A DNA stretch of 64,000 nt from Cyanophora paradoxa CCMP329 (Eukaryota > Plantae > Glaucophyta). Each line of letters begins with the position of its first letter. Position 1 is the stretch's first letter. Below the pieces are notes generated by a model. That model was not told the DNA's origin. It saw only the letters and a list, made by a program, of their open reading frames with translations, and did not search any database. A program made the position numbers and the translations under genes. Of this stretch, positions 1 to 27,800 are shown one piece after another. Where the stretch lies: assembly GCA_004431415.1 (NCBI GenBank), contig QPMI01000145.1, positions 1-64,000 on the forward strand, read 5' to 3'.

Positions 1-990
1 TTGATGTTCTGGGCGAAGCAGTGCTGGCGTTGCGTGAGAAGGTTCTGGAGTTGAGTGCGATCCTCGGGAAGGGCGTCGGGGTTCGACTCCGATGGTTTCA
101 ACAGGGCGTCCACCATCGCCTTGATGGTCTCGGGCGATGGCTTTGTAGGAGGCGCAGTGTCACTCGACGGGGGCTCCATTCGAGCGTCGGCATTGACGGA
201 CGCGATGGGCACCGTGGGCCGACTGCGGGGCCAACCAGCATCGGCTCGGAGTCGAAGCGGGCGAAGTGAGGCTCGAAGAAACTGGCCAGCTCCATGAGCT
301 CCTTGTCGTTGAAGTGATCGCCGGTTCGAGCAGTGTAAGGGGTGACGACACGTGCGACGTACGACATGAGACGCTCGCTGGCCTCGTGGGATAGCGGGAT
401 GTCGGCAGCAGCATCGACGGAGCCAACATGCGCCGCCTCGCCCTCCTTGCAGTTGGGTTCGGCGGTCGTCGGTGGTAGACCTCCGGGTAGAGGCGTCGGG
501 CTCGGGAGATGTAGCGCCGTGGTTGCGAGCGTCGGGGTACGACAACAGGCTTGAAGTTCTCATAGATTTGCGCGGCTACGGAAGAGATCGGGAATGTCAG
601 TTGTTGTTGAGGTGTCCAGGAGCTGTAACACCCCTTGGGGTAGGTCTCGACATTCTCGTGTGGACGGAATTCGGACTCCGGCCAAGTCCCGAATTCAGTC
701 TCCGCAATCACAGTTCCGGCTCGCAGGCGGACAGGCCGCCTGTGAGGGTTGCAGATCTGCACGAAAAACGTGCCGTGTGCTGGGTTGCGGTGAATTTGGT
801 ATGGCACCAAGAATTCGACTTCGTCGGCTCCGTCGAAGCCGTCGTCGTCGAGGAGGAGTGGTGGCGGAGTGAGGAGGACTTCCGGTGCGCCGAGAGTCGT
901 GTTCGAAGTCGTTTGTGGCATGTAACATCGAACGAGCGATTCACCCGGCCGTACAGTGATGTCCTTCGCCAATCGGACCAGAACGCCGCC
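1..990 (-). CDS. Pol spacer: dUTPase-like beta-rich domain and linker leading to reverse transcriptase (truncated by the window edge)
   Basis: VLVRLAKDITVRPGESLVRC...FFVQICNPHRRPVRLRAGTVIAE (about 690-990) resembles the PR-RT spacer of many gypsy pol proteins. The final frame reads DRTQLQNLLTQRQHCFAQNI, like the LL..F.DVF helix that precedes gypsy RT. RT motifs themselves are not visible. Confidence 0.65.
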
Positions 991-1079
991 GTCGTGCTGG
1001 CCCGCAGCCGAAAAGGGACGTGGAATCGTTCGCCATCCGAGGAGTCAGGCGACGTGATCGTCATTCCCCAATTTGCTGG

Positions 1080-1430
1080 GTCGAGCACGATGTGAGCGTT
1101 GAGCGCCACCAGCGTTGTGAGGCCGAGTAGCATTGGAGTGTTGCCCATGAGACCAGGCGCGACGACGAGGACCTTCCGCGGAATTGTGACCGGACCAACC
1201 TTAATTGCAATGAATGCGATGCGCGCATAGGCAGTCATGTCCGTTCCAAAGCCGGTGAGGTGCACGCGCGGAGCGTTGCTGTAGCGAAGGCCTGGCAGTT
1301 TGTCGGCGATACTGCCGTCGAGTACGTCCGCAGCGGCTCCTGTATCCACCAATGCCTTGGTGAGGAGGTATTGAAGGACTTGTCGTCGGTGATCGATAGC
1401 GGCGATGTGCAAGTTGACGCAGATTCGGCC
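1080..1430 (-). CDS. Retropepsin-type aspartic protease domain
   Basis: KALVDTGAAADVL (DTG at 1338-1346) and downstream PMLLGLTTLVALNAHI within ORF 708-5171. Confidence 0.9.
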
Positions 1431-4400
1431 GTCGTTGATGCGCTCTCTGAGCGTGCGGTTCGTGTCCGTCATTCGCGCAATGGGGTGTGGTACTGACGGG
1501 CCGCCGTCGCCGAAGAGGGGAACGTCAAGGGGGTCCTCGACGTCGTCAAATCCCAACATGCGTGCCGCGCAGACGCGAAGCGAGGCGAGGTAGCTCTGCT
1601 CATACGGTGTGCACGGTGTCGAACCGGAGATGACGCTGGCTGGCGGGAGCGGTGCCGTCCGCTTGAGGCGAGGTCGCTTCCGCGTGGTTGTCCGCCTGTG
1701 CACGTTCATGAGGACGTCCGTCGCGGCGAATGGGCGTGCCCTGCAGGGAGCTGCCGACAGACGCAGCGGGGGCCGGTGATTGCGCATTGTGGCTGAAAAG
1801 TATCCGACGCCAAGGATGGGCTTGCAGTCGGCGTTTGCGAGCTTGTTGAGGTGGCGGTTGCTGGGCCAGCCATAGTGAATCTCGTTGATCGCGTCAACTT
1901 CGGTCCCCGCTGCGCCATCCCGTCGTTCAGCCGGCCGGTAGCCAGGCTCTCCGGGGGATCGGAACGGGATGGCTTCGCGGTGGCGCGAGAGAGACGCCCG
2001 GAGATATTTGACGAGTTGGGGCCAAGCGTGGCGGAGGCGCGTGTCGCGTTGGAGTACGTGCCGCTCGTAGAAACGTGTCCGTTGAGCGTCATGACTACGG
2101 AAGTCATTGTGGAGGACCACGTCCCACGCCGCGAGGCCGATTGAATTGAGGATGAAGGCCGCCCGAGTGAACAAGGCGCGAGTGAAAGCGAGGTCGGCTG
2201 ACAGGCCCTGAGAGGTTGTGAAATCCCACCGAAAGTTCTCGATCTCGTGGAGCGTCTCCAGGATTGCGTGGGCGTTGAGTTGGTGAGACCGCTGAAGCGG
2301 CGACCAGTCGTACAAGTGATAACTGGCAGCGAATTCAGGGTCCTCGAAGGCACGGTGTCGCGCGGACGTGATCCGCTCGTAGTCCGGTCCCCGTCCAGAG
2401 TAGAGGAGCCAGCAGCCCATCGTGAGATCCGTCGACGTCCTGGGATTAGTGAGGTCGTTGTATGCGATCGTGTACGTGTGCTGCCGTGTGAGCGGTCCAA
2501 GGAGGCCGTGGGGGGCGAACGCGGACGACTGCACGCGCGAGGCTAGGCTCGGCGTCCCGGCCGACGGGGTCTCCGATGGAGCTACGGACTCGGCGGTGGA
2601 GCCACCACTGTCCGAGCTGGAGTCGTCGCCGTCAGAGGTTCCCGTCGTCTCGGTCCCCGTAGGACTACGACGCGGAGGCCTGTTACTGCCAGATGGCTTG
2701 AAGACAACACCCTGGATGTGACCGAAGCGTGCCAGTCCCGTCGGCTCGTTGGTGCGCAGATCCTTGAAGTCGGTCGACCAGACGACGAAGGGTCGGACAA
2801 AGGGCTTGCGCGCAATCCCAGGGTTCCGACGAATGTACTCGTCCGACTTGATCTTGCCGTCGAGGCGCGGGTCCCAAATGTACGCGCGCGACTCCTCTGC
2901 CTTCGTCGTAGTGATGTAGTTCATGATGTTAGTGAAGCGCGTGCGGCCTTCGTACGGGTCGACAGGCGCGCCGTGGGGGCCGTGACCAATGTAAATGTGG
3001 GGGATCTGACGAAGGAGGCTGTCGTTGTCCGGATCGCCCAGGGAGTGACGCAGGGGGAGGACGTCGACGATCTGTACCGCCCGGTAGGCTTCGCGGCTAG
3101 TGAACGTGATGGGCCGCCTCGTCGCCGCGTCGACGGTGGCGTGATTGTAAACGAATTGTTCCAACCAACCGTGGAGTAGCGCCCGCGCCTGCGGTTCGCG
3201 ACTGAAGATGGCGGCGCCGAATTCATTGTAGAATGGATCGAATGTGAAGTTGCCATATTCGGCGTGACGGAATTGCTCGTGTATGTCGGCGTATCGCTGT
3301 TCGAAATCCATAATAGCGTTGCGCACTGCGCTCGCGTTGACGTCATAGACACTGGGACGATGCGGGTGTGACGGATCGTTCGTGGGATCGAAGTCAGCGC
3401 CCCGGACTTGGGCGTTGAGTGCGTTGATGACTCCATCCGGGAGTCGGAATGCTACGGGCCAGCAGTGGTTTCGATCCATGTCGACATCTTCGCGAGCCGC
3501 CGGGGGTGTCTCGTGCTTGATCTGGACCGCCAACCAGTCGTTGGTTGCCTTGTGCAGTAGGGATTCGAAGGCTGTGATTAAATGTGCCGGGTCGACGCGT
3601 TCGCAGTCAGGGTACTCGACCTCGTACCATTTGTCGAGTTTGGCACTGCGCGCCACTTCGCCTGAAGCCGTGAAGCGGAAGTGCAGCTCATCCTCGTGGC
3701 TACGAACGTAGTCGATGATGATGTTCCCGAGTTCCCCCGGTAGGGGCTCGAGGAAGAACGACAAGGCACCGTGCAGCTTGACTGCCGCCGCCAGGTACGC
3801 TGCGATTCCGTACACCCAAGTGTGTACCGAAAGCGGGAACCCCAGGACCTGGTGGACGACGGGGGGCGTTGCAGGCGCGGTGCCCGTGGGCCCGCGACGA
3901 CGCAGAGACACGACGACGCCCCCAGGGCCAGTGTAGTCATTGACGGACACCGGGAAGTACTTGGGGTCGGGGCCGCACGGGTGCGGCCCCGCCGCCTCGT
4001 TTGGGGGTTTCCTCGTGCCCGCGATGATCTGCTGCCAGGTGTTCCGGTTGTTCGCGTCGAAGATAGTGATGTGCGAGCGGTTCTGGATCGTGTTGGGGGC
4101 ACCGCGGCTGGGTCCGGCCGGTGCAACGTGCGTGAATCGGACGATTCGAGGGCCGCACAGGTCAGCATTGGCCGGCGTAAGAGTCATGGGCGGCGCGTTG
4201 AGGTCGTCGGGCATGGCAATCTCGTAGAAGCATCGTTCGACATCTTGACGTGAAGCGGAGTCACGGAGGTGCGCGTGGTTGTCCTCGTCGTAGATGCAGT
4301 CGAAGTAGTCGGCATACTTGTTGGCCGGGTGGAACTCGTCGGCGGCCGTGATCAGGAACGATCGGAAGGGCAGGCCCGCGCGGTTGTGCTGGCTGAGTTC

Positions 4401-7400
4401 GCCATGGCCGGGAGCACCGGCGCGGTACGGGTAGGTGCCGGGGCCGACGCCGTAGCGTAGGACACGACTGAGTGCTCGCGAGAAGTTCGACCAGCGTACG
4501 TGCATCTTCATGAGGAATGGGCGCATGTACGGGACGCGCCGGAGAAATGCCTCGAGACCAGAGTCGCCGAGTAGCACGTATGGCATGTGGACCTCACCTA
4601 GGACGTGCATGTACTTCTTTGTCGTGGTGGCGGGATGAACTGGGGGTGGGTCCCGAGTCGGGATTCCCTCCAGCTCTTCGACCGGCGGCGGCTCCGGGAG
4701 CTCCTCCGGTCTGTGCCCGTCCTCCACAGTGAGCTCCTCGGTCAGATCAGCCGTCTGTCCGAACGGGGCTGGGCCTCCGAGGATGTGAGCCGCGACGGCG
4801 AAGATGTGGGGCGCGTGTCGCCCATGTTCCTGGATCGTTTTGCAGTACGCTGTGGCCAGGAAGTCCGTGTTCGTGAAGAGAAGCGGTGTCATGAAGATGT
4901 GATAGGAGGTATCCCGTCCCGGATCAGTATCCAGAGGTAGGAAGTCACCTCCAGCTCGCGTCTCCTCGGGGCTGTATGTGCGCATGCCGTACGGGAGTGG
5001 GGGCGAGGATTGTGGAGACGGATTGGGTACCAGTCGTTGATCGTTTGGGCGAATAATTCCCCGTTGATGTGATTGTTGCGCCGTCCAAAACCGCATAGAA
5101 CGTGTCGCGCTCGTTCTCCGTCGAATCAGGTCGCGTTCCCGTCGGACCATCACGCCGCTCAGATCGGCCACACTCCGTGCTGGTAGCCAGCGCCGTCGAC
5201 GACCGTGAAGCCTTCGCCCATTCCTCGTTGAGGAAGGCCCAGAAATAGACGTCAGGAATGTCAGCGTTCTCCGAGAGTAGCACCTCCTTGAAAGGAACAG
5301 TGTGGAGTTCGCTCAAAATTCTGGAGATGATGGAGTCGACCTCCTCGGAGTGAGCCGGGCGGCCTTGCGCTCCTTCTTCTGCAACTTCTCGTCATTCGGT
5401 CGCTTCTCGCGGGGGCGCTTGCGCTCTGTTCCGTAGACCATAGCGCGGGCGCGAAGCCCGAAGTACGTGTTGGAGTTCCAGAAAGTGTCCTTGCTCATGT
5501 CGTCGACAAGTCCAACGAGGGAATCCAGTCAGGAACGCGAGGCAAGATGTCGATGCCGTCCGACGTCCACTGTGTCAGTATCCGTACTCGTCAACGTCGC
5601 GCTCAGGGCCGTGGACCGGACGGCGAGAGGGTCGGTGACGGGTACCATCGGACTGGGAGGACAGGAGTAGGTGATCGCGGTAGCGCGGGTAAAGCATGCA
5701 GTAGAACAGATTCAATCGATGCTCGGCGTCCAGGAGGAAGGCCCGTGTTACCGCCAAGCGCTGGGTGGTCGTAGCCTTGCTAAGTGCAGTGTCGAGTCGA
5801 GCGACGAGGCCGAAAGCAAGCTTGCTCGCAGTACGAGTGCTTGACTCCGTCTCGAGCTTGTACGCGCGACGCATGCCTCGAGAGTCAGCTGAGGATATGG
5901 GAGCGCCACGCAGTTTGCACGCCAGGAGCGCCGCCTCTTCAGGGTGCACCATTATGTAACGGTCAGAGTTGTAATAGAGCTCGACAGCTGGCTCGGGCTG
6001 CTTCGGGGTGAAGACGGGGGTGCAGTCGCGATTCGAGACGGATCGGTTTGCCCTTCTTGGCGAGTTGACGCTTGTGCATGAACGTAGTGATTGACATCGC
6101 GACAACGGTGGTGTCATGTAGCTCGGCGAGCCTTGCCAGCGCAGTCGTCTCCGTGACAGACGCGGCGACGACGTTCGTGAAATTTGAGGGAGGACGCCGG
6201 AGCGGTGACGGGACAGTCCGTGCCGAAGACAGTGGTGTAGGTCGGACTCGCTGACGGGGGGCGTGCGCAGACGATGGACATCGCGTGCCGCGACCACTGC
6301 TAACTGGCTGTTCAGCCGGATCTCCTCCGCGAGCTCGGCGGTCGCCCGCTGGTTCGTAGCCGGGTTCGCGTCGGATTTCGGGTTGAAACGGGACGTGTAG
6401 TAACGGCGCAGGAAGTTGCCGGGCCCTCGACGTCGGCTGTGATGTTGACGAGGCGGAGTACGTTCTCGACTTGCTCGGTGAGCATTGACAGCAACGGCGC
6501 GTGACTCGTCGGCCATGGACGGTCGGAGCTCGGTGCTGGGTCACGAACGTCGTAGAGGTGAGCAAATCGGCTATCCCCGTAGCGGTCGCGCGTCTCGTCC
6601 CACTTGTAATGGTCGAAGTATGCAGCGATGTCCCACGCCCGCGCCAGGGCCGTCGAACGCATCGACAAGGCGATGTCGGGCGGCGGTGAACCGTGTCGAA
6701 GCGTAGACAGATAGATGTCGTCAGGTCCTGTGAGCGGGGCCGTGAACTTGACAGTTTGGACCAGTTGCCTGATTGTTGCAAGGCGCGTCGCCGTGTTCGT
6801 GATCTTGTCGAAGTTCAAGAACCGTTCATCGCTCTCCGTCATCTCCACGTCGTAGTGCAGCGTCCGGAGATTGCGGGCAAGGTTGACAGCCACCTGAAGG
6901 ATGCACGGTACGACTGGAGTCTTGGACTGGTGTACAAGAGTGAACTCTGTCGGTGTCAAACCAAACAGCTCCAGCATCTCTGGCCGTCCGAGGACATCGG
7001 CGAGCGGTCGTTCGGGTGAGGCCACGTGGTCGCCGTCTCCCAGGCGCGAAGGGCTGAGCCCGCGCGAGGCGCATGATGACGTGGATGACGGAGCGGAATC
7101 GGTCAGATGTTGAAGGAGGTAGTGAGCCTGGTCACTCGGGCGAGTACCCAGCAACGGTTGCCCAGTAGGCGTGTTGCTGCGGGCAGCTGCGAGGTGCATG
7201 CAGCTCGTGAGCTCGCTGGCGGCGAAGAGGGTCGGCGTCTCAGGGTCTTGCGCCAATCCGTCGTCGTCGTTGTGACCATGAAGCGTCGCGGCGTGTCCAG
7301 GTACGCACGCAGCTGGTTGTGCACCACGGGCTTGAGGCGAAGGATCGTCCAGGCGTGGCGGTGTCCAAGGTCGGCGGCCACGTCCTTGATCTCGGGCTCC

Positions 7401-10400
7401 GAGTCGCTGGACGTGTCTTCGTCGGTGTCAGGAGGACTGTCACGGTCGTCGTGAGGGCTCGGCAAGGTCGGCGTGTCGACGATGATTCCCCTCGAAACGC
7501 GCGGGTCGCCCATGGGCACGTCCTCGGTCCTCTCAGTGCCCGACGAGTCGGCAGTCGTCGAGTCAGGCATCGACGCGTCGGTCGGTGCAGTGTAGTCGGG
7601 GTGAAGTGACGGGATCGGCAGCATCGGGGTTGGGCCGGGCTCTGCGGCGGGGCCGCCGTCACAGTCGTGGCCGGGCTGGCGGGGCGTCGGACGGGGCCAG
7701 TAGCTCAGGCGCAGGCGACGGGGCCGTCGAGACCGCAGCCACGGCCGTGGGGGACGGGACGCTGTGCGGGGTCGTCAGCGAGGTCGCCATCGCCGGTGCG
7801 ATGGGCGAAGCATCTCGAGCGGCCGTCGACGAGACCGGCGTCTCGAGAGCGGGCGTCGGGGTCACCGGAGTCGTCGTCACGGGTGCAACGGGCTGGGCGT
7901 CCGGAGTCGTCGTCGCGGGTGCAACGGGCTGGGCGTCCGGAGTGTCCGTCGACGAGGCCGTCACCTCGGGCGCAGGGGGTGGGTCGTTCCGCGGGGCCGG
8001 GGGCTCCGGGGCGTCGGTCGGCGGTGTCACCGGTGCCGTTGGGCACGTCATGTCGTCGTCGTGGTAGTGAGGGTTGCCCGGGGTCTGGGGCCGGCTGGTA
8101 TGAATCGGGAGCGCGCGGCCGCGGCCCCTGACCGTTCCCCCGTGCCTCGCCGATTGGCGCGGTGGAGCCTGTGCTGCCGCAGTACGGCGACGGGCGTCCA
8201 TGGTGCGGCCACGAGCAATACCACGATTGCAGCCTGCAAGTAGGGGCTTGCGCCGCGGCCTGCACCGGGTCCTCTCCCTTGGCAGCTTCGGCGTCGAGGC
8301 GAGCCTGCAGTTCACGTGCGAGCTGTTCGTCGGCCAGCAGCTGCGCGTGCTTGTCGGGCGGAGTGGTCGGGGACGGCGTTCCAGGCGTGCGGCGACGAAG
8401 GATGTCTGTCAACACGTTGTGGACTTCGAGGTACCTCGCCGAAAACTGCGTCGGGTCCCGAAGTCGCGCGTTCTCGGCGGCGAGTCGCAAGTACTCCATG
8501 TCGACGTCGTTGGTTCGGAGAGTGAGATGCGGCTTAATCTTGTCCCGCTGTCGAGCCGGCCAGTCGTGTAGAACGGCAGCGACGTAAATCGACGCCAACT
8601 TGCGGCTCACTCCCCCAGCTGCAGCGACCGTGGTCTCAGGCACCGGGTAGGGCGGAAGATCAGTTGGTGTCGGGCCGAGGCGCGTGTTCGGCTCATCGAC
8701 GGGGTGCATTAACGCGTGAGCATGGTAGAACGCCGGTGCCGACAAGCAGACGGGAAGCGACGCGTTCACAGTCGTTCGCGCGAGTCGGGACGTGTCCTGC
8801 CCAGAGGTGTTGACAACTCCCGGGCGAGAATGATTGGCCGAGTGCCTATCGGTCCAGTACTCGCGTCGCGAACGCCAGGCCGGAGGGTGCTGGCGCGGAC
8901 GGTGAAGGGGCTGACGTCGACGTTAAGGAAGATGTCAGCGACCCGAGGCCAGTCGTCGTTCCCCGTCAAAGACGTCGTTCCCTGTGGGGTGATATCCATT
9001 AACAGACCGATAATCCGCAGGAAGAGCGTCTTCATTTCCATCGTCACTCCGTACAGAGCGTCGAGCGTGATGTCCGCCGGTGCATCGTCAGGTCGCAGAG
9101 TACTCGGGTACGGCGTGCGCTGGCGTGAGGTTGGCGACGGTACGGGCAATTGCGGACGAACTCCATGTACGGCGGCGTTGTGCAGAGGCGGCAGTGCTCC
9201 TGAAGCTCGACGTTAGTCATTGTCACCGTGTTGCCCGTGGTCGAGTCGATGTACTCGTAGTAGCGGTGCGCAATGCTGATCACTGATGCACGGAGCCGGT
9301 GGTTCACGATGACGGGTGAGCCATCGGGGCCGATGCTGCACGTGTGGCACGGTGCAGGCATGTCGACTGGCGACAGGAAGAGAAGAATTTGCTGTCCCCC
9401 AACACTGACCATGATCTTCTCGACCGTGCGAGAGGCGAAGACGCGGTCTCCACCCTCGCGCTCATACCTCCCCGCTGCCTGGTGGCGACGAGCGATGAGC
9501 GTGATCGAGTCTTCCGCAATGTCCATCAGCATCTCGCGCAACTTCCGGTTGCGGTTGATGGGTCATTGTCAGCCCTGTCCTCCGACGCCTTGGGCCGCAG
9601 TACGGCGGGCGCGGGTGGAGTGGGCGTGGTCGGCGGACGATTGGCGTCTTGTCCTCAGGGGCGAGGCCCTCTGCCGTCGCGACAGAGCTGGGTCCGGCGA
9701 CGGGGTCGGTCGGAGCGTTTGCCGCGACGAAACGAGCGTAGGCGTCAGCAGCCTTTGCCGAAGTCGCGTCAGGGCCTGAGGCGAACCGTAGCTCACCCTC
9801 GCGCTCGAGAATGTAGACGAGAAGTAGGATCGTAGACTCGACGTCGTAGCCACGGAGGTACGTGCGGAGTGTGCTCTCAACGTAATTGACAGCGGCCGTT
9901 CGTCGGTTGGGGCGCATGAATGTTGGGCTGCGGTTCTGCGCGTCGGTGAAGGACGTCTTGACACGGTTCAGGAGGGACTCGACGACAGCAGCTCCTGGGA
10001 GCGTCAGCGTTGTCGTAGGTGCAGGCGGCGCGTCGGTTGTGTCCATGGCGCCGTCGGTGAAAGTGAAGACACGACGGGCGCACAGAGCGTTGACGATTGC
10101 CTGAACCGTAGTGTCAACATCGAATGCCTCGAGCTCCTTACGCAGTACACTCGTGACGTGGTTGGCCGCAGCCTGCCGCGTGCGAGGCGGCGGGGCGCCC
10201 GTGTTCGTGATGGCCATCGCTGCCATTTCAACCAAGTGTAACAGCTGCTCGCCCTCAGCGCCCCGGTAGGGCCGGCGAAGCTGCTCGTTGGTGTTCGAGA
10301 TGTTAGTGTTAATTGCCGCGATAGTCGTCGTCTCACGGGCGATTGCGATCCACGTGCGCAACGTTGTCACGTCATCCTCAGTGGCCGTGTCTGCAATGAT

Positions 10401-12300
10401 GCGTGTGACGGCCGCATTCAGACGCTTGTGCTCACTGTGGCCTTTCGGGTTGATGAGCGGGCGGGTCGCCAGCAAGTGCCAATGCGGGTGGCTGTGGTGA
10501 GCGTGAGTGCCGTCAGCGCACGGGATGCCGGGGTTCACGTCGAGCGCCGGCGGGATCGGGAACCGCCCGTTCTTCGCGTGTCCGGAGATGTCGCGGGCGA
10601 TCACAAAGAACTCCATCTCCCTGGTCGGGTCACGAACGGGGTGCGACGTAGGGAGGCTTTCAAGCGCAGCGATGAGCGCGGAGTGAGCAGTACGAAGTCC
10701 GTCATTGGGCGCGTCACGACGGTGTGCCGAGGGAATGGGGCGGGCAACAAGGGTACCATTCTCCTGGCGGCCGACGACATGGGGGTGGCAGTCAGCACAC
10801 GTCTCGTTGGCGAAAGACAGGTCCCGACGGCGAGGCATGTGCGCATCCTCCGTGAATACCGCGGTACGGTAATTGGAGGCCTGCGTGAAGACGGGGTACA
10901 TGTTGTCGTGGGGCTTGGGGAAGCGGTGCGCGCGCGCCTCCTCCGAGTCGCCTTCCGCATCGATAGCGTTGCGGACGCGAGCCCAGCAGACACCGGGGCC
11001 CTTCGGCTCGAGGTACGTCGTGAGCATCTGGAGGGCGGGGCAGTAAAGGATGGTACGCGCGTGGATCTGGCGCTGGTCGCTCGAAGGGATGCCATCACGA
11101 AGCCAGTCAGTGCACTGGATGCCGTCGACGTGCATGCGGTTGTTAACACGGCGAGTGTGCATGTTGTAAGCAACGTTGTCGAGCCAGTCAGTGCAAAGGG
11201 GTACCAAGGACTCGCAGCCCTCGACCGCCGGTAGCGAGTCGATTTCGGGCATCTTGGCGGCGGGGCCTTGTAGTTCGGGGTCGGCCGCCCACTTCCCTTC
11301 GAGACGTTCCCCTCCTGCTGCGAGGTGGCTGCGGGGGAGTCGGTGCTCGATTTGGAGGTTAGCGGGCCGAGTGCAGTGTCCATCGGCGACTCTGTGACGG
11401 GGTCCCCAGGGCGCAGTACGTCCGGGTCTTCGGCTCCCGCACAGAGTCAGCGTCGGAGTTCGTGCTCTTCGCCGAGGGGGCGGCCGCGAAGGTGAGCGAC
11501 CTCGTGACTGCGACGCGGGCGACGGGATTGATGGCGTTCGGGCGCGGGCGGTGCATACGGCCAAAGTTTCGAGTGAAGAGCGGGGTTTTCTTGGACGTGA
11601 CGGGAGCCAAGGCGGCGGACATGCGAGTGTGGTCGTGCCGGCGGAGGCCAGCGTTGATGAGGTCGCGGATACTGCCGGCAGTGACGCCCCGCCGGGCTGC
11701 GCACACCGAATTGGAACACGGGACTCGGCCGCAGTACGGCTTCCCGTTTCCATCTCTGTCGACAAGTCAGACGGGGCCGGCGACGACGGCCGGTCGCGTG
11801 AGTCGACGAGGGGGACGGCGACGCGGGTTCAGCGACGGGGATGGCGACGGGGACGGGGGCCGTCCTCTCCGCCGCCGACGTTACCGGCTGCGTCGCCGTC
11901 GTGGCGTTGACGTCCCGAACGAAGTGCGCGATGTCCGATGCCGAGGGCTGCGTCGGCGTGATCGGGACAGTTTGCACCGGAGCGATCGGTACCATGGCCA
12001 GGCTGTCCGTCGTAGCCTCAGTCTCCCGGCCCGAGTCAGGACCACCGGACTGCACGGCGTCTCCGTGGTCAGTCGGGCGAGGGTTCGGGGGCGGCGCGTT
12101 AGCGATGGGCCGGTCGGGCGCGGAGACGGCGCGTCAGCAACGGAGCCAGTCGGGCGCGAAGGCAGCGCGTCAGTGACGGGGCCAGCCGGGCGCGAAGACG
12201 GCGCGTCAACAACGGGGCCAGTCGGGCGCGAAGACGGCGCGTCAACAACGGGGCCAGTCGGGCGCTGCATCGGGGCGGGATTGCCGAGGAGGGTGGCGTT
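1430..12300 (-). CDS. About 3600-codon insert of unknown function between nucleocapsid and protease (globular-looking blocks separated by Pro/Thr/Ser linkers)
   Basis: Overlapping protein-like minus-strand ORFs tile the interval almost without gaps (11881-12576, 11447-12055, 11359-11706, 9462-11765, 9044-9541, 8766-9149, 7705-8769, 7659-8315, 7103-7624, 6312-7256, 5575-6516, 5313-5498, 4945-5316, 708-5171). The last one is in frame with the protease. Confidence 0.75.
7865..7943 (-). repeat. 36-bp in-frame duplication (TPDAQPVAP[A/V]TT x2) in a Pro/Thr linker
   Basis: CCGGAGTCGTCGTC[A/G]CGGGTGCAACGGGCTGGGCGT occurs twice in tandem. Confidence 0.85.
12107..12265 (-). repeat. 36-bp in-frame coding tandem repeat, about 4.4 copies (RPTGPVVDAPSS)
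   Basis: Unit GGGCCAGTCGGGCGCGAAGACGGCGCGTCAACAACG with variants. Confidence 0.9.
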
Positions 12301-14300
12301 AGATCCCGTCCCGCCTTGGCCGCCGCCTCCACCGCCGCTCTGGTAGCCGCCCTGCCACCGCCGCGATGGCCACCACGGTGCCCGCCGCCTCCTGCGCCGC
12401 CAGCACCACCATCGGGGCCACGCTTCGGGGACGGACCGTGTGGGGGACCGCCGTCGTGCTGGCGCTTGCCACTGGGGCAGCGGTTCTGCGTGTGACCCTC
12501 CCCTCCGCAGTTGTAGCAGCGCACCGGCTTCGTGCACGCCGACGCGTGGTGGCCGTGCTCGCCGCAGTTCCTGCAAGGGGCGGTTTGTAGCTGCGCCGGA
12601 GCGACGGGTACAGAGTTCGACGGCGGGGGACCGCGTTGTAGGACGGTGCCTGCGGGCCGCCAGGGATGAGGCCGCAGAGGCGGGCCGCAGCCAGGACCTC
12701 GGGGTCTTGGCAGCCTTGGTTGACGAATTTGAGTAGTTCCCGACGGTACGGGTGAGAGCAACACTCGTGGTAGTCGTCAGAGTAGTGATGGATGTCCGCG
12801 GCTCCCAACGACCGACAACGTGTGCAAATGTGATCGTTGGTGCCGGGCCTCACCCTCGGGCGCGCGTCGCGCGGGTAGCCCTGGCTCGTACGGATCGCCG
12901 TGACCGTCTGCGTACGGGCGTAATCGTAGGGGCGGCCGATGGGCGGGCGATTGCCGTAGTCCTTCCCGGGCACCGGTGCGTGCCAGTCGCAGCAGCCGGG
13001 GACGGGCTTGTGGCCCGGCGCCGGCTGCTGGGGCGCGGGGAGGGCGGATTGGTAGATCGGATTGGTTGTCGGCGGGTCGACGGCGTCGTGTGGACGAGAT
13101 TGACCGAAGAGCCGAGTAACTGCGAGTGCGGGGCCGAGGGCGCAGGGGACGACGAAGGCGGTGGGTGTACGGAGTGCCGCTGTACGGCGCCGTGTACCCG
13201 TCGTCGCCATCGTTGTCGTAATCGTACCCGTCGACGTTCGCCGCGTTGATGCTGGCGCCCTTCTTCGAATTCCCAGTAGGAATCGAGGGCTCCCCAGCAG
13301 TCGTCGTCACAATCAGAAAGCCCGCCTCCCGAATGAGCGACTGCGCACGAGTGCAGAAGAGGTTAAACCAGGTCTCCTTGTCCTTGGGAGTCATCCCATC
13401 GGTCGGCGACAGGTCCTGCGCCATCGTCTTCAGCTTCGGCAGTAGATTCAGCGCCAGGTCGTAATTGGCCTTGCGCTGCTGCTCGTACGGGAGGCCGGAG
13501 TACAGGCCGTGGTGTAGCGTCTTGCGCTCCGTGATCTGCTGCTCGAGCGTGTCATAGACGTCCAGCGCCTGCACAGTGTGGCCCGTCTTGTCACGCGGCA
13601 GGTCAGTGAACGCGATGAGGTCACAGATGTTGGCGAAAATACGGTCCAGTTGAGTGCCATCGTACGCCGCGATGAGCTCCTCCTTGAGACGCTTGCGCTC
13701 AGCGGGGTCAATCATGCGAACGAGGCTCTTAATGTACGAGGGGACGCCGCGAATAATGTCCGAGGGCATCTCAGCCCGGAGTTTGTCGACGACGGCCTGT
13801 CGCGTCTGGACGGCCTTCTGCGCCGCCTCCTTGGCCGCCTCCTCCGTAGCCGTCGCGAGTGTCGCCTTCGCCTTCGTGAGCTCGCTCTCTGCGTCGACGA
13901 GGTTTTCGACGAGAGACCGGTGCAACTCGACCGTCGAACGGTAGACTTCCGTTAGTCCGCCGGCAGCGAACGGACACCGAAATCGACGGCGTGGTACGCC
14001 GCCTGCGAACCGTCGTCCAGCAGGGAGTACTTCTTGTCTCCGCGAGTAGCCGAACGGATGGCGTTGTGATGTTGGAAGACGCCGTTGGGCGAGACGGGAA
14101 TCCCGGTGGTGTGGCCCATCTTGCCGTCCTCCATCTTGATCGCCTGCGGCGGCTCCGCGCCCATGACCCGCCGGCGCGCGATCTCCTCGGCGTGCGCCGC
14201 TGCGACTCGGGCCGTGCGGTTGAGCATTGTCAGTTGGCCGGGGGAAGGTCGGGCCATCTCGCCGGAAGTCATGCCTTCGCGCTCCATCACGCGGTCGTTC
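12300..14300 (-). CDS. gag: Gag-like region: coiled coil, helical capsid-like domain, Cys/His segment, two CCHC zinc knuckles, Gly-rich tail (split over several frames)
   Basis: ORFs 13952-14383, 12777-14408, 12299-13210 and 12099-12764 chain through frame changes. CRNCGEHGHHASAC and CYNCGGEGHTQNRC (Cx2Cx4Hx4C) lie at 12477-12575, followed by an RGG/Gly-rich tail. Confidence 0.8.
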
Positions 14301-14669
14301 GACGTAGACGTTGCCGTCGGGCCGCGACCGCAGTACGGTACGCGAGCTGGCCCGTGACCGTCGTTCGAGTCGGACCGCCGCAACCGATCCCCGATGCGCG
14401 CGCGGCACGAACGATGAGCCAGGGAGCTAGCCGATGCCGCGGTACGGCGGGCTGCTCCCCAACTGCGCGAGTGAGCGGCGGAGGCGCGTCCGAAGCTTCG
14501 AGAAGGGAAGCGTCGGCGGCGAGGCGGGTCAGCGGAGTGCGTCCGCCAGTAGCGGTGCTCTCCGAAAGCGTCAAGCGTTCGCCTCCTCGTAGTCCAGCGG
14601 GTTCACGCTCGCGGCCAACGGACGTGCGCAGCAAGTCCGTCAGCTGGCGTGCGCTGGTCCCGGCGAGGA

Positions 14670-14967
14670 TGTTTTAGGAGGTTTTATACGTCCCAGTAGA
14701 CCTTAGCAACCTTCCCGTAGCGTACCAGCAGCAGGCGAGCAGGCTGTCACGTTGCAAGAGAAAGCTGCTAATCACAGACTACTGTGTACCCTAGGACACG
14801 GCTACCGGAAAGTATCAAGCTAGAGTCAGAAAAAGTAGCTAGGGTCGCATCTTCGTACAGGGGTACAGTGACTCAGGAAATCGCGAGAAGCCGCGGGTCA
14901 AGTCACGGTACTACTGCGAACGAAGTGCAAACAAAGCACTAACGGCTAGGAAACCCTATCGGCAACA
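14670..14967 (-). repeat. Candidate 5' LTR
   Basis: AT-richer non-coding block upstream of gag. The right end GGCAACA (14961-14967) reads TGTTGCC on the minus strand. The left end is either TGTT at 14670 (TGTT...AACA, 298 bp) or TGTCAC at 14745 (223 bp). The second LTR is not in the window and no canonical PBS was recognised. Confidence 0.55.
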
Positions 14968-15943
14968 GTCCTGCGGGCACCGTTCTCGCTTTAAAAAGTT
15001 TTTGGTTACACGCTTGATCGTCTTGCGGCCGGCCGCCGTCCTTTTATATATAATTAGTCGTGGGTTTAGGTAATTATATGTATAAGGCGGGCGGAGGGGC
15101 GGGAGCTCGAGGGGTAGGGGCCACGGGACGCGAGCGTTTGGAGTCAGGGACTGGCCCGGGAAGAGCGTCAGCTGCTCGTTTGCGTGGAGAGGGGGACGGG
15201 CACGCGCGCTTGGGGGAAGGGGCAAGGGGGGGAGCGGGACGTTTGGACGGTTGCAAGAAGGGGTTGGACCCTGAGGACGGGGTGGGCAGGGTGCTGGCCG
15301 CTAGGCTCTCGTTTAGCTTTATAATTAGCGTCTACTGTTCTGCTGTCTGAGGGACCGGGGCTGCAAGCGTGCGGCCCGCGAAGAATTGAGGGTTGCGTGC
15401 AATTGATGGGAGGAGGACGCAACCGGCGGAGAGGCGGGGTGGAGGCGGAGAGGACGCAACCGGCGGATATCGATGGTTTTTTTGCAAATGGTATTGTGAA
15501 GGGAGGGGGGGGGAGAGGGCGGGGGAGGGGGGGAGGGGGGGCCGGGGAGGGCGGGGACCCGGCTTCCGCTTCCGCTGCGAAATCTACGTTTGGTCCTATC
15601 GGTGATGCCTTGTCGGATTTCCCAGGAATGGTTGCGGGCGCATCGGTCCGACGGTCCCTCCAGATTGCTCGGAGATATTGGTCGAGTAGCAGCGCGAGGT
15701 CTTTTTGGATGGATGAAGTGGTGGTCTTGTTGATGCCCAGGGCTGTGCAGAAGGTGTGCTGTGGGCGCAGGAGGGCTGGGGCGGGGAAGGGGAGTATTTT
15801 CCGTGTCGCATCGGGAAGGCCGATGGGGCGAAAGAGAGCCGGTTTTGCATTGGGGGAAAGAAGGGCCCTCGGCGGGGCCTTAATTGAATTCGCCGATCCT
15901 TGCAGATCTTAACCGCTGCTTGAGCTTGCTTGCGCAAGTACAT
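14968..15943 (-). CDS. Possible multi-exon host gene fragment, apparently interrupted by the retrotransposon
   Basis: Exon-like blocks MYLRKQAQAAVKICKDR (from 15943) and ALGINKTTTSSIQKDLALLLDQYLRAIWR after a TGCACAG acceptor. An acceptor-like CCCGCAG ends 3 nt before the LTR start. No product recognised. Confidence 0.35.
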
Positions 15944-16364: not shown

Positions 16365-19300
16365 TCACCAGTCAAAATCACTATCACTGCCATATTGCCC
16401 TGCTCGTATGCGTGTCGATATGAGCTTTCCCTTCTTGATGGCATCGCGCCTTTTTTCAACCCTGCTCTGCTTCACAAACCGCGCATGCGCCGCCACCGAC
16501 GCTGGCAGCTGCAGGCGGGCGATGTCCGAGGAAGCCCAGCCCCCGAGGCGGAGCACGCGGAGGACCGGGCCGACGGAGAGCAGCTTGTTTGCAGGAACGT
16601 TGCCGTTGAGGCTGACGTAATATGCGGAGGGCACATTGAGGCTGAGGTCTTGCAGCTTGCGGTTTGCGGAGACGGAGACGGTCGTGACTGACGGGCTGGA
16701 GAGCTCGATGGAGCTAAGCGTCGGGCAGGCCATGAAGGCGACCGACTTGAGCGAGGCGGCCCCGTGAAGTGAGACGCGCGAGAGGGGCGCCACGCGTACG
16801 AGCTCCAGGGACGCGAGTTGCGGGACAGCGTCGAGGAGAGCATCTGCGCATGCACAGAGAAGAGGGTCAAAAGTTTGAATTGATCATTCTGCAGTTCTAT
16901 ATAACATGCAAGAACATTTTGAATACTGATACATAAGTTGCAAGAACAATTTGAATATGCATGCCGCACTTGAGAAGTTATAACAAGACGGGGCCAGATG
17001 GGACTGGCGAAGGGACAGGGTGCGAAGGTTGGGAAGAGCGCGAATCGTGGATGCTCCAAATACCCCGCAGCCCAAAACACTCAAGTGCTCGCATTCCGGA
17101 AGGCCCAGCACCAATTCCGCAGTCATGTGGTCCATGTTAGACTGACAGTCTTCAAAGCGCAGCCTGCATTGATCTGTGTCGCATGCAAAAGCCATCGCAT
17201 GCATTAAAAAGAGCTCATGATCAATCAATATAATTTGCAATTGAACGGAAAAGATGCACGGAAATTGATTTGTAGAGATTTCAGGCCTGTTGGAAGAACT
17301 CGAGAGAAGTCGACGTGACGCGGGGCCAAACCGCTGATCGGCTCAGAGAAGCGAAGTGACTTCAGGTTCGGGCAGTCGTTCTTCAGGATAAGGAGGTCTT
17401 CCATGGTGAGCGCAGAGCGAACAGCGTCGAGATTTCTAAGCGTCTTTGACTGCAGCTGGCGTGCCAGCCATCGTGAAAACACGTCTCCTTTGCTAAAAAT
17501 AACCGAGATTGAATTAACGGCCGAAATAAAAATCACGAAGTAATCAAATAATCTATTTGCACACCGATTGGAAAGGACGAGAGTCTCAATCGGAGCGCTC
17601 CTCATCAGCGGAGCCAGCTTAAGCCTTCCAAGTGAGGCCGGCTTCCCGCGCGTCCCGGAAACGTCGAGATAACGGAGCGAAGTGCAGCGCTGTAAGGGAG
17701 ACAAGTCCATGTTCTCGAACTCGCTTCCAGAAAGTACCAGATGCTTGAGGCTGCTCCCCTGAACAAAACTGAGTTTTGAGACGAGTGCCTGAATTTTGCA
17801 GAAATTAGCACAGCAAATTAAATGCAGTGTTAGCACACAAATGCGTACTTGGATTGCGTTTTTCGCGGTCTGCGGGGCCGTTCGAAGATAGAGTGGAGCT
17901 CCAACCGAATAAGAGTGAACTTGGCCTAGCCAGGATCCAATCTCGATGGAGATTGCAATTGATTCAAATCTATTTCCAGAAAACTGCAGATTTTCGATGC
18001 GCTCAATGAGAAGCCGTTGCTGGTCGGCTTGTCGTAGCAGCATCTGCAATAAGAAGCCCACAAAACGGCGGAGATCGGCTTTGATTTTCGCCTGCTCCTG
18101 GAGTTTCCGCGCCTGCAGCTGCATCTGCTGCTGCAGCTGCTGCTTTTGCTCCCGCTGCGCATGCTTGCTACGAGCCGGCTGCATCTGTAAATGCGCGCTC
18201 TCACGTCAGACATTGCTATGCGATTGCGTGCACGTGGAAGTACTAGTACTGCGCACCGGTACCGGTATTACTTGCTTGGCTTTTTCATCGCTGTCGTGTA
18301 TTTGAGCAGACACTGCAATGGACCGCAGAGAAGGCGAAATCGAATAAATGACTTTCTTCCACACGTTGGGGCGGATTCGACTTTGGATATGTGCCGAAAG
18401 ATCGAAGTTTGGAGCCCTTGACCGGCGAGACGGTGCGGATAAATGCGCCGTGTAGACAGCGAGGCTGCCGTTCCAGACGAGGGGGTCGCACACCAGCTCG
18501 AGCCACCCTCGCGACACTTGCGCAGCCACGATCCGGTCGAAGGAAGGCAGGATAGAAAATATGCGGACAAAAATATCGTTCGGCAAGTCGTTGATGCATA
18601 AGTGCTGCTGCCTGCCGTGGGATCGCGATCCCGGCTTTGATGTACTTTGCGACGTCGACGTCGACGGGCCGCGGCCGCTCGTGAGACCAGTACTGGAAGC
18701 TGCGTGATCGGGATCCACGTTCGAGCACACAGAAATTTGCATGTCCCCAGAGACTGCGACTGATTCCGGCTGGCTCTCTTGCTGCTGCAAGTGCAATTCA
18801 TGAGCCTTTGCTGGGGCGCCGCGGCCGTCCGCAGGCTGCCATGTCGGACGCCAGGTCGTATTCCTTTCGTTTCGATCTCCAGCCTGCAACTTTAACTACG
18901 CATACGTGGAAATTACAGAACGGAAGCGTAGCAAAGGATGGGTTCGACTCACTGGAAGCTTAAGGGAACTGTCGCTTTTGGGCGACTGGAATGTTTGGGC
19001 GAGAGTCCCAATGTGGTGACGAATCCAGTTCAGATCAATATTAATTGGCGATTGGCTGTCCGGCTCTTGTTCGAACATCTTCTCGATCTGATCATGATGA
19101 TCAGCTGCTTTTAAATCTTGCGAGATAAAACGATATTATTATCTACGCAGTTCAATTTAATCTATTTTTGAGTCCCCGTATATTTACGCGCGATCACCTG
19201 GCGAAGGGCGAATTTGAAGGCGTTGAACGAAACGCCGTCGGGAAGTTTGCGCGAGCTCGTCGCCAGCAACGAAATAACCTCCACGAAATCATCGCAACCG

Positions 19301-24847: not shown

Positions 24848-27800
24848 TGTCTCCGGCGGTGGAGGGTCCACCGCCGCAGTCAGCGCCGCAACAGCAGCCA
24901 TCAGCGAAACCGGAGAGGCGGCTCCCTGCTCGGTGGCGCCGGCTGCCGCGGCTGGGCGACCACGCCGCGGTCGCTGCCGCGTGCGTCCTCGTCTTTGTGG
25001 CGGCACTGGCGCCCGCGGCGCTCGCCCAGTGGGGCTGCTCGGGTGCGCGCTTATCTGCAGCGCCGGATTCTTGTCGCCCGCCTGGGACTGAGGCGCCGGC
25101 ACGCAGGTCGGGACTGCTACTGGCGGACGCTGTGCGGGGTGGCGACGGGCGGCACCGCGACGGGCTCATGCGCCTCCGTCACCTTCGCCAACAACCTCGT
25201 CGGTGCCCGGGCTTTGCTTTGTTCTCTCGACTCTGCTTCCCTAAGAACCTGGCTCCTCGCCCCGCAGCTGTCTCCTACAATCCCACGAGCAAGCTCGTGT
25301 ATGTCGCGGACGGGTACCAGAGCATCAAGGTCCTTACCGGCGTGGGCACCATGACGCCAGGTAACCCACGCACGCACTCGCTCGTGTGCCAAGAGCTGAC
25401 CTCAAGCGCGTTCCTCAGCGACCATTACGGTCACGGCCATGACGCTCGGCCCGGGTGTCAGCTTCACGAAAATCGAAGGCCTGGATCACTACAACACGTG
25501 GTTGACGGTTCTGGACACGGGCTTCGGGAACGGAGGCAAAGGCGGCGTCCTGCGCGTGCAGTACTCCGACGGGACGATCACGTACAAGCCGCCGGCCGCG
25601 AACGCGATCCAGAACATAAAGGTAACCGATTCTGCTCCTCGATGTCGAGCGCTCTTTTTAGTGCTGACGCTCGCGAACGCGCGCGCGTTCAGCCGGGGGT
25701 GGCTGTCGATTCGACAAGTGCGCTTGGAGCTTCCTGTGTCTGCCCGAGCACGTGATCGAAAGTCTGACACCCCACCCGCAGCGGGCGATGCCTACTTTGG
25801 GGACATTACAGGCAGAATCTACAAGGCCGGTCTGAATAACAACAACCCTTCTATTGTCAGCCAAGGCGATCTCAGCAACGGCGGAACACTCGGCAACTCC
25901 ATTCTTGCCCACGCAGTCCATCAAACACTCGTGCGTGTATATTTAATTTGATAGTGAGGAAGTTATTGTGGTAATCATGTCGCGCAGAGACGACTGTACA
26001 CATTCGAAAACGCGAACAAGAACGCGTACTACCTCAACTTGACAGCTGCAGGTACCAAGCACACTTTTTTGCGAGTGACTGCTGCCTCCTTACTGGTCCC
26101 GTCAGCTCTCATATCGTACACGGGCGTTTTCGGCGCGACCGACGTTGCTACTCTCACTGCCGACAACAGCGGGGCCGGCCTTGCAGTACACCAGACCACG
26201 TGAGTGCCTGAAGTTCATTTGTATAAATTCATCCTGACCGCTGTGTCTCGACTTTTTTATCAGCGGCCACCTATACCTGACTACTTTCAATGCGGGGACT
26301 CTGACAGCGAAACTGTACTACATCAACGTGCGTTCAACCTTTCTACAGCTTCATTTCCGCTCTGCTGCCGCCGCTAATTTCCGCTCTTCAAACTCGAAGA
26401 TGACCGCGCCCACGCCTGCCCTGGCTCTTATGCTGACAAGCCCCACGACTGGCGTGACGCCCGTCGATGGATCACGTGCGCTCGCTCCTTCTGCATCTGT
26501 GATCCGCAGTGATCGCGGCCGTCGCCCAGCACTTCGCCTAACGCCCCGCGCAGCGTTCTCGACGCCAGTCGCGACGATGACGCAGCCCACGGGCTTCGCG
26601 CCCTTCACCGCGTACCACTTGCTCGCCATCGAGAACAAGTTCGTGCGGGCGCTCGTGACGATACGGCCGCCGGTCCCCCCCGTGCTCACGACGTCGGGCG
26701 CCCCGTCGCCGACATCGACGGCCGGCTCCGTCCTCATCTCCGCGGGGACGGACCCGAACACGGAGTGGAACGTCTCGCCCTCTTCGTGGACCCTCTTCAT
26801 CAACACGACCATCCCCAGCGCGAACGTGACAGTCACGGCCTCGACGACCTCGTACACTTTCACGGACTTGAACAGCGGCACCGTCTACGAGGTGTACGCT
26901 TCCGCGGCGAACCTGGCGTACACCAGCTCGACGACCTTCAGCGCCGCCGTAACGTTTAAGACGCTCCCGGCGCCGCCCGCCGCGCCGACTGTCTCCGTCT
27001 CGTCTAAGAACTGGGAGACTATCAACCTGCTCATCATTCCGCCCTCAAACACGGGGGGGTCGACCATCAACGGCACCCGCATCTACAGGTGCACACGTGA
27101 CGGGCCGCCCTGCACGCGGATGCGTGTACATGTATTCCTTCCCCTGACGCCGCTCTCTGTCAGAAACGGGACGCTCATAACTACGCTCGGAGAAGGCATT
27201 TGGGCATACATGGACTCGGGAAGAACCCGATTGACGACGTACTCTTACACGGCGGTCCGTCTTCGCTATCTACGCTGCAGACGCGCCGATCGTTTGAGAG
27301 AAACTGACATCGTGGCAGGTCTGCTCCAACGATATGGGCTGGGGAACCATGAGTAGCGCACTCGCCGTGCAAACAACAGCAGCCCCTCCGGGACCACCAA
27401 CTCTGTCTGCCGGGACCGTAACCGCAACTTCGATCTTCCTCGTAATCGCGTACCCCGCCGACAATGGCGGAGCCGCGATCAACAGCACAATGATTAACCG
27501 TAACGGCACATTGGTTTCCACTCTTTCGTCGGGAGTGTTCAACTGGACGGACAGCACAGTCACGCGGGCGACATTGTACGCTTTTACGGCCAAAGTTTCG
27601 AATGCGATCTCCGAAAGCAACGCGAGTTCGGTGCTCTATGTCACGACTCCGCCCACGCCTCCCGCGACGCCGTCGGTGTCGGGCGCGGCGCTGAACGCGA
27701 CGGCGGTCTCGCTGACGATCACGGCGCCGGCGGACGATGGCGGGGCGGCGATCAACGGGACGCGGATCTTCCGGAACGGGACGCTGATTGCGACGCTGGC

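What the first reader, a model, noticed from the sequence alone, without database searches (positions are those of the whole stretch)
1..14967. Giant gypsy-like retrotransposon with about 11 kb of unknown coding cargo between Gag nucleocapsid and protease
Seen: LTR-like end, gag with twin CCHC knuckles at 12477-12575, and protease DTG at 1338-1346. Between them is about 11 kb of intron-free protein-like sequence on the same strand, and its last ~1250 codons are in frame with the protease. Established: in typical Ty3/gypsy elements the protease follows the knuckles within a few hundred codons at most. Known giants such as plant Ogre and planarian Burro are exceptions. Inference: the element is probably over 18 kb once RT/RNase H/integrase and the 3' LTR are added. 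It would make several extra proteins as part of Gag-Pol, released by its own protease as in a virus-like polyprotein. I recognise none of the cargo domains with confidence, so this may be an undescribed cargo-carrying retroelement lineage.
Basis: partly seen in the sequence, partly recalled or inferred. Interest (0 to 1): 0.92.

Follow-up and report, generated by a model that had tools for sequence, protein, structure and literature searches.

The report
Giant cargo-loaded gypsy retrotransposon in glaucophyte
A young, multi-copy jumping gene of about 20 kb in a glaucophyte alga carries roughly 3,700 amino acids of unrecognised protein fused between its Gag zinc knuckles and its protease, and likely makes its copying enzymes only by a ribosomal frameshift after the protease; the layout echoes planarian Burro elements, but the cargo matches nothing found outside this alga.

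Summary
Confirmed and extended. The window's frameshifts are assembly errors: short-read contigs of 8 runs put back 54 missing letters. Counted in, Gag, cargo and protease form one ORF of about 4,543 aa (14287-708), with about 3,720 aa between knuckles and DTG. The frame change after the protease is real: a C CCU UUU site with a hairpin 7 nt on, and the same break in two sister families. Contigs run 4,541 nt left to a second 298-bp LTR, so the element is about 19.9 kb. Named models of near-identical copies lie on 9 Cyanophora paradoxa contigs. RT and RNase H are shown; integrase only in sister families. Cargo blocks are kept at 23-34% identity in diverged families, yet hit nothing in Pfam, PHROGs, NCBIfam or PDB, and the part searched against 1.84 billion proteins found only this element and its sisters. 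One copy lacks 7 kb of cargo. Burro is a precedent for the layout, so this is a new variant. The scan noted Burro-like elements elsewhere, not this family.

The parts
14670..14967 (-). 5' LTR, 298 bp, TG...CA, 4-bp terminal inverted repeat
   Evidence: sequence; contig depth about doubles over it, and contigs leave it at both ends with other flanks
14600..14669 (-). Leader at the primer-site position; no TGG start, no self-priming match of 6 nt or more in the LTR; 14600-14676 is shared (3 differences in 77 nt) with a low-depth contig of another element
708..14287 (-). ORF1, Gag-cargo-protease, about 4,543 aa once 52 read-supported missing letters are counted; first ATG 14287 (gene models start at 14227)
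   Evidence: frame arithmetic; indels; model P0084 of another copy
13233..14227 (-). N-terminal Gag domain, predicted capsid; about 20% identical to the N-termini of two sister families; no Pfam or PDB hit
12477..12575 (-). Two CCHC zinc knuckles
11253..12470 (-). Gly-rich, then Pro/Ser/Thr-rich linker with a 36-bp in-frame repeat (12070-12265)
9636..11252 (-). Cargo block A (539 aa), with two tandem repeats of about 45 aa (10035-10190, 9762-9920) and a sub-threshold EAD10 match
   Evidence: repeat score 76 vs at most 40 in 1000 shuffles; EAD10 E 7e-5, 23.2 bits vs cut-off 24.1; Atlas no usable hit
8251..9559 (-). Cargo blocks B (Cys/His-rich, possible zinc binding) and C (ends in a short helix like a ubiquitin-binding MIU motif; label recalled)
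   Evidence: sequence; no Pfam hit
5000..7430 (-). Cargo block D (about 800 aa) with a basic patch; most window errors fall here
   Evidence: models P0007, P0086; no family hit
2720..4940 (-). Cargo blocks E-F, conserved in sister families
   Evidence: 29% over 595 columns with P0091; 23% with P0093; 22-24% with P0107
1899..2525 (-). Cargo block G, conserved in a sister family
   Evidence: part of the 34% match G-to-protease with P0093; 33.5% over 167 aa with P0110
1047..1445 (-). Aspartic protease, DTG at 1346-1338
975..1017 (-). Predicted -1 frameshift signal: C CCU UUU at 1017-1011, 7-nt spacer, hairpin 1003-975
   Evidence: only canonical heptamer in the 1047-708 overlap, in phase; hairpin -16.3 kcal/mol, top 1% of 978 windows, z -1.9
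1..1017 (-). Start of Pol in the -1 frame: a conserved domain at the usual dUTPase-like position (label recalled; Pfam gave no hit), then the start of RT; runs off the window
   Evidence: 33% to P0033; continues into RT and RNase H in P0003
4177..11230 (-). 7,054 nt missing in a deletion-derivative copy (microhomology, no GT-AG, out of frame)
   Evidence: gene model P0082; the same joint in short contigs of runs X15 and X18, only 27 letters on the short side

Best explanation
This is one copy of a young, multi-copy Ty3/gypsy LTR retrotransposon family of about 19.9 kb whose Gag, 3,700-aa cargo and protease lie in one reading frame, and which likely reaches its reverse transcriptase by a -1 ribosomal frameshift after the protease and likely cuts the cargo into accessory proteins that act on the host cell. 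Shown: single ORF1, copy family, second LTR at the expected distance, RT and RNase H, frame break after the protease in three families, cargo conserved between families. Inferred: every ribosome makes Gag-cargo-protease (about 500 kDa) and a minority slips into Pol (up to about 6,290 aa in all). The protease would cut in the Pro/Ser/Thr-rich linkers, freeing five or six globular blocks at capsid-level abundance. About 410 kDa per Gag is some 8 times too much for a Ty3-sized particle (Ty3 numbers recalled), so most cargo would have to be released outside the particle. It most plausibly serves counter-silencing or RNA/particle handling in a host that methylates its repeats.
For: Frame: reading 14602-9600 with X at the 10 read-supported breaks gives 0 stops, against 19 without them and 19 and 50 in the other frames. 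33 letters between 11230 and 4998 and 52 in all give exactly 4,544 codons. Copies: 8 models at 70-100% (7 at 93% or more); named models on 9 contigs; contig depth 5-8 times the flank or junction contigs, a rough figure. Second LTR: contigs of X2 and X17 run 4,571 letters left of base 1 and end in the LTR. Frameshift: the 11 letters missing in 1-3493 are accounted for by 9 at about 2843 and 1 each at about 455 and 245, so none is left for 1047-738. 9 of 9 models holding the DTG and Pol jump by a predicted intron there, at varying places. 5 of 5 such sister models also jump and 3 others start inside the post-protease domain. The text after P0093's protease is the -1 shadow of this domain (217 vs 117 +/- 9, 0 of 200 shuffles; +1 frame no better than chance). 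Cargo conservation. Host methylates repeats: PMC12344493, passages.
Against: No cargo function is shown: there is no curated hit, and both structure models were unusable. The integrase of this family was not seen: its models end about 170 aa after RNase H, and the search that found sister integrases returned none for it. The hairpin is only modest against shuffles (z -1.9). No clear common cleavage motif came out. SNPs in the cargo are 9 silent, 10 changing and 1 unclear of 20, which is not a clear sign of selection. Only blocks E-G were shown conserved between families; A-D were not covered by the sister models in hand. RNA status of the runs is a guess. No listed contig bridges 12216-12236; the frame there rests on models P0082 and P0084.
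Confidence: 0.62

Rival explanations
1. The cargo is structural or serves transmission: it stays on or in an enlarged particle that packs the 19-kb RNA, or moves it between cells without an envelope protein.
For: It is fused to Gag in frame and would be made one-to-one with it. It is kept in the same order in diverged families. In Burro the same slot holds Env (PMC6431247 section 7).
Against: No Env-type Pfam hit, whereas P0050 hits a fusion family at E 1e-105. The best 19-residue hydropathy in the cargo is 1.62, borderline. The mass exceeds a 40-nm sphere about 8-fold (with recalled Ty3 numbers).
Confidence: 0.15
2. ORF layout as above, but Pol is reached by splicing of some transcripts (as in Ogre) or by an internal start, not by ribosomal slippage.
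For: Ogre joins GAG-PROT to RT-RH-INT by an intron spliced in a subset of transcripts (PMC6317226, passages). Gene models place introns here, and three sister models start at a Met in the post-protease domain.
Against: The two ORFs overlap by 110 codons instead of being spaced. The predicted introns differ from model to model. Contigs of two guessed-RNA runs pass 1-4005 unbroken with no joint listed (contigs drop rare forms). An in-phase heptamer lies in the short stretch where the shift must occur, with VPF kept in P0093.
Confidence: 0.15
3. The cargo is a passenger: captured host genes or remnants of another mobile element (for example a Helitron-like replication protein) with no present role.
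For: One copy has lost 7 kb of it (P0082). The Atlas gave Helitron_like_N clusters for P0002 at 0.86-0.90. The within-family SNP pattern is not clearly purifying.
Against: The frame is open over 3,700 codons, and blocks E-G keep 23-34% identity while RT has drifted to 75%. No host or foreign homologue came out for E-G among 1.84 billion proteins. The Atlas lead is below its own marks (138 of 256 features, recognition 1599), and Pfam gave no Helitron hit at E 10. The deletion is out of frame, so that copy makes neither protease nor Pol.
Confidence: 0.08

Closest known systems
Burro / GYPSM1 giant gypsy-like elements of planarians (PMC6431247, section 7 read in full)
   Same: Gag with 2-3 CCHC knuckles, then long in-frame cargo, then protease; a dUTPase-like slot between protease and RT; polyprotein of 4,873-5,140 aa
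   Different: Burro's ORF1 also holds PR-RT-RH-IN and carries Env, MATH, BIR, BCL2, SUMO-like and ankyrin domains; it exceeds 30 kb with LTRs. Here Pol is in the -1 frame, none of those domains is found, LTRs are 298 bp, and the predicted fusion (up to about 6,290 aa) is longer. No Burro sequence was in the tree.
Ogre/Tat elements of plants (PMC6317226 and PMC6431247, passages)
   Same: Large size; GAG-PROT in the first ORF, RT-RH-INT in the second
   Different: Ogre's size comes from 1.9-6.5 kb LTRs and separate extra ORFs, and its ORFs are spaced by an intron. Here almost the whole internal region is coding and the ORFs overlap.
Ty3 (Metaviridae type element)
   Same: Best solved-structure match of RT-RNase H (E 3e-60, against 2e-37 for the next entry, 8r0s, and 1e-23 for foamy Pol); order PR-RT-RH-IN in sister families
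   Different: About four times longer (Ty3 size recalled); the frameshift lies after the protease, not before it
Avian sarcoma-leukosis virus gag-pro / pol layout (protease position recalled; -1 shift in PMC5009743, passages)
   Same: Protease at the end of the Gag ORF, Pol by -1 frameshift
   Different: A retrovirus with env and no cargo; a functional likeness only
Unnamed long gypsy polyproteins of metagenome assemblies (P0050-P0078)
   Same: 2,900-4,300 aa with extra domains ahead of protease or RT (fusion protein, SF1 helicase, NADAR, DNA methylase, NUDIX)
   Different: RT only 31-39% identical, no supported grouping, no shared cargo

Membership tests
Ty3/gypsy LTR retrotransposons | Two LTRs, TG...CA | tested here: met
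   5' LTR in the window; contigs end in the LTR 4,541 nt left of base 1 and depth doubles
Ty3/gypsy LTR retrotransposons | RT of the Ty3/gypsy kind with YxDD, and RNase H | tested here: met
   YVDD, RVT_1 and RT_RNaseH in P0003; Ty3 is the best PDB match
Ty3/gypsy LTR retrotransposons | Order PR-RT-RH-IN | tested here: inconclusive
   PR-RT-RH shown for this family; integrase after RH shown only in sister families P0100, P0033, P0096, P0116; the length to the left fits a Pol like P0100's
Ty3/gypsy LTR retrotransposons | Gag with capsid domain and zinc knuckle | tested here: inconclusive
   Knuckles met; the N-terminal domain is conserved in sister families but has no Pfam or PDB capsid hit and was not folded
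Ty3/gypsy LTR retrotransposons | Primer-binding site and polypurine tract | tested here: inconclusive
   No TGG start, no self-priming match; host tRNAs not available; a short purine-rich run precedes the 3' LTR (loose end at 14968)
Ty3/gypsy LTR retrotransposons | 4-5 bp target-site duplication | not testable with these tools
   The 3' flank of this copy is outside the window and no genome is held
Burro / GYPSM1 | Long cargo in frame between knuckles and protease | tested here: met
Burro / GYPSM1 | Pol domains in the same ORF as Gag and cargo | tested here: not met
   ORF1 stops at 708; Pol is in the -1 frame
Burro / GYPSM1 | Env, MATH, BIR, BCL2, SUMO-like, ankyrin cargo | tested here: not met
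Burro / GYPSM1 | RT in the Burro clade | tested here: inconclusive
   No Burro sequence in hand. The four Cyanophora families form a 100/100 clade with no supported sister; forcing them with the Env-bearing P0050 and L003 is not rejected (p-AU 0.26)
Ogre/Tat | Multi-kb LTRs; intron between PROT and RT | tested here: not met
   298-bp LTR; overlapping ORFs; no splice joint listed
Chromoviruses | Chromodomain after the integrase; RT clade | tested here: not met
   No chromo hit in 4 of 4 sister Pol models (not testable for this family itself); outside the 100/100 clade that holds the plant and green-algal rows

The most novel reading that the evidence does not exclude
A glaucophyte-only clade of 20-kb retroelements makes the longest retroelement polyprotein yet noted (about 6,300 aa) and produces, one for one with capsid, a set of five or six proteins of new folds that build an oversized particle or an envelope-free route between cells, with a transcribed deletion copy supplying short Gag to dilute the load.
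Probability: 0.15. Interest if true: 0.85.

Novelty: new variant of a known kind. Interest (0 to 1): 0.6.

Why it matters
It shows that the Burro design, thousands of residues of cargo fused behind Gag, is not a planarian oddity. It occurs in an early-branching algal lineage with unrelated cargo and a different expression plan that would make cargo as abundant as capsid. The host can be kept in axenic culture and silences its repeats by methylation (PMC12344493, passages), so cargo function, the size limit on packaged retroelement RNA and a post-protease frameshift can be tested directly. About 3,700 aa without any known homologue is also a source of possibly new folds. In practice, these copies are annotated as many fragmentary host genes with false introns.

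Tried and rejected
Rejected: a decayed or nested one-off insertion (full-depth indel correction, many copies, sister families); introns in the cargo (predicted introns differ between models; no GT-AG joint listed); the 4176-11231 joint as an intron (ends CG..AC, microhomology, present in model P0082).

No result: Pfam, PHROGs, NCBIfam and PDB sequence searches on the cargo. Two AlphaFold2 jobs: mean pLDDT 33.6 for a single sequence and 30.8 with a 4-row alignment whose second half was misaligned; no fold search was run on them. Atlas: nothing for block A, a weak Helitron_like_N lead for P0002. Rfam: one chance-level hit on the other strand. No relative in viral contigs; 56 distant gypsy loci in metagenome contigs, 27-48% identity in the best segment.

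Motifs noticed by eye (HUH-like HPHWHLL in block A, a Tpt1-like helix in E, winged-helix-like repeats, MIU) are recalled and got no support from any call. P0033's cargo may be a distant homologue: it is the best of 93 targets for both profiles, collinear, but at E 0.03 and 0.13. No RNA holder is on record; guessed-RNA contigs cover the element, with lower depth inside the deleted stretch, but contig depth cannot rank parts. The first tree run timed out; trees used 62 of 106 rows and 37 rows, thinning redundant pseudoscorpion, ryegrass and locus rows and this family's duplicates.

Literature: 10 searches listed no description of these elements. PMC6704402 (passages) reports only that LTRs are 1.77% of the genome. 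PMC12440569, PMC11410931 and bioRxiv 10.64898/2026.05.21.726589 (passages) do not cover them. Repbase, GyDB, subscription papers and supplements were not seen and may hold an entry.
Full report
Observation. The minus strand of 1-14967 holds, in order, a 298-bp TG...CA repeat end (14967-14670), a Gag-like region with two CCHC knuckles at 12575-12477, about 11 kb of protein-like sequence, and an aspartic protease with DTG at 1346-1338. Codon bias follows the minus strand through the insert. No genome is held for the window, so I used public runs and gene models of other copies. Named models near-identical to the window carry Cyanophora paradoxa accessions, a glaucophyte alga.

The broken frames are assembly errors. 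Short-read contigs of 8 runs put letters back into the window. One search counts 50 indel rows and shows 12, all insertions at full depth where covered; contig lengths give net +11 (1-3493), +30 (4582-8860) and +3 (9089-11260, before the break at 11258). One search lists 10 single letters in 11180-15100. Reading 14602-9600 with X at these 10 places gives no stop in 1,671 codons, against 19 without them and 19 and 50 in the other frames. Gene models of other copies need shifts of the same size at the same places. With 52 letters counted, ATG 14287 to the stop at 708 is exactly 4,544 codons: 607 aa to the end of the knuckles and 3,724 aa from there to the DTG. One 20-base stretch (12216-12236, in a 36-bp repeat) is bridged only by models P0082 and P0084.

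It is a family, and complete in length. One search returned 8 models, 7 of them at 93-100%; named models lie on 9 contigs. Contig depth is roughly 5-8 times that of flank or junction contigs and doubles over the LTR (depth is only a rough guide). DNA contigs show few substitutions, so the family is young. Contigs of X2 and X17 run 4,571 letters left of base 1 and end in the LTR, which gives 19,860 bp. Models continue into RT (YVDD) and RNase H, best matched by Ty3 among solved structures. The integrase of this family was not seen: its models end about 170 aa after RNase H, and one search returned 5 proteins, all from sister families. Those have RH, a spacer of about 500 aa and an integrase. 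The space available here (up to 1,853 codons) fits the sister Pol P0100 (1,767 aa from an internal Met).

The frame change after the protease is real. ORF1 runs to 708 while the Pol frame opens at 1044. The only canonical slippery heptamer in this overlap is C CCU UUU at 1017-1011, in phase, with a hairpin 7 nt downstream (-16.3 kcal/mol; top 1% of 978 windows; z -1.9). All 9 models that hold both the DTG and Pol cross here by a predicted intron, at differing places. In sister families 5 of 5 such models also jump and 3 start inside the next domain. The text after P0093's protease is the -1 shadow of the window's Pol start (217 vs 117 +/- 9, 0 of 200 shuffles). I put -1 slippage at about 0.75; Ogre-type splicing (PMC6317226, passages) is the rival. 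The consequence is that the cargo belongs to the Gag ORF and would be made at capsid level.

The cargo. It alternates Pro/Ser/Thr-rich linkers with globular-looking blocks. Pfam, PHROGs, NCBIfam and PDB gave no hit at curated level. A search of blocks E-G against 1.84 billion proteins returned 9 hits: 7 from this family and 2 diverged Cyanophora models. Blocks A-D were not searched this way. P0091 matches E-F at 29%, and P0093 matches F at 23% and G-to-protease at 34%, in the same order, while RT is 75% identical. P0033's family has at least 1,580 aa ahead of its protease, with only weak collinear similarity. So at least part of the cargo is old and kept as protein. Within-family SNPs are uninformative (9 silent, 10 changing, 1 unclear, no stop). 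There is no Env hit and no clear membrane segment. Both structure predictions failed, and the Atlas gave only a weak Helitron_like_N lead. One copy lacks 11230-4177, out of frame (P0082; the same joint in short contigs of X15 and X18), and would make only a shortened Gag.

How it likely works. The full-length RNA gives Gag-cargo-protease and, by slippage, a fusion of up to about 6,290 aa. The protease would release capsid, nucleocapsid, cargo blocks and enzymes (inferred from how such polyproteins are processed; no cut site shown). At 410 kDa per Gag, 540 copies would fill about 8 times a 40-nm sphere (Ty3 figures recalled), so most cargo likely acts outside the particle. I favour accessory, counter-silencing or RNA-handling roles, since the host methylates its repeats (PMC12344493, passages). 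Rivals are a structural or transmission role (0.15), splicing instead of slippage (0.15) and passenger DNA (0.08).

Comparison. Four Cyanophora families form a 100/100 clade on a long stem with no supported sister among 37 rows; it lies outside the clade that holds the plant and green-algal rows. No Burro sequence was available, and a forced union with an Env-bearing metagenome element was not rejected (p-AU 0.26). Burro has the same Gag-knuckle-cargo-protease order in a 4,873-aa ORF that also holds Pol, Env and apoptosis/ubiquitin domains (PMC6431247, section 7). Unnamed long gypsy polyproteins with enzymes ahead of protease or RT also exist. So the element works like Burro in layout but fails Burro's defining features. 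Ten literature searches listed no description of it; Repbase and GyDB were not seen.

Verdict. The feature is real and larger and cleaner than the window suggests: a new variant of a known kind. Interest is 0.6, for an intact 20-kb, almost fully coding lineage in a culturable alga, with 3,700 aa of unexplained, partly conserved cargo and a predicted post-protease frameshift.

Noticed in passing
window 27449-33897: About 10.7 tandem copies of a 604-bp unit at 93-97% identity inside a fibronectin type III repeat gene
   Followed up: no
window 14968-15900: The flank is itself repeated (depth several times single copy), and a contig continues past 14968 with other letters, like an empty site: the element inserted into another repeat; no Pfam hit for its ORF
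   Followed up: partly
window 14600-14676: The leader just inside the LTR is shared (3 differences in 77 nt) with a low-depth contig of another element, suggesting a conserved, non-canonical primer site
   Followed up: partly
window 17228-18895 (-): Host F-box/LRR gene 2.3 kb from the LTR
   Followed up: no
P0055-P0078, P0050, P0051: Unnamed gypsy polyproteins of 2,900-4,300 aa from metagenome assemblies carrying NADAR, DNA methylase, NUDIX, SET, 3'-5' exonuclease, HNH, CYTH, SF1 helicase or a viral fusion domain
   Followed up: partly
P0033, P0100, P0096 (sister families): A spacer of about 500 aa without Pfam hit lies between RNase H and integrase, with a twice-repeated short motif; this family's models all end inside it, so a second recoding event there is possible
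   Followed up: partly
window 8763-8830: Six substitutions within 70 nt in a contig at about one copy's depth, perhaps a diverged or recombined copy
   Followed up: no
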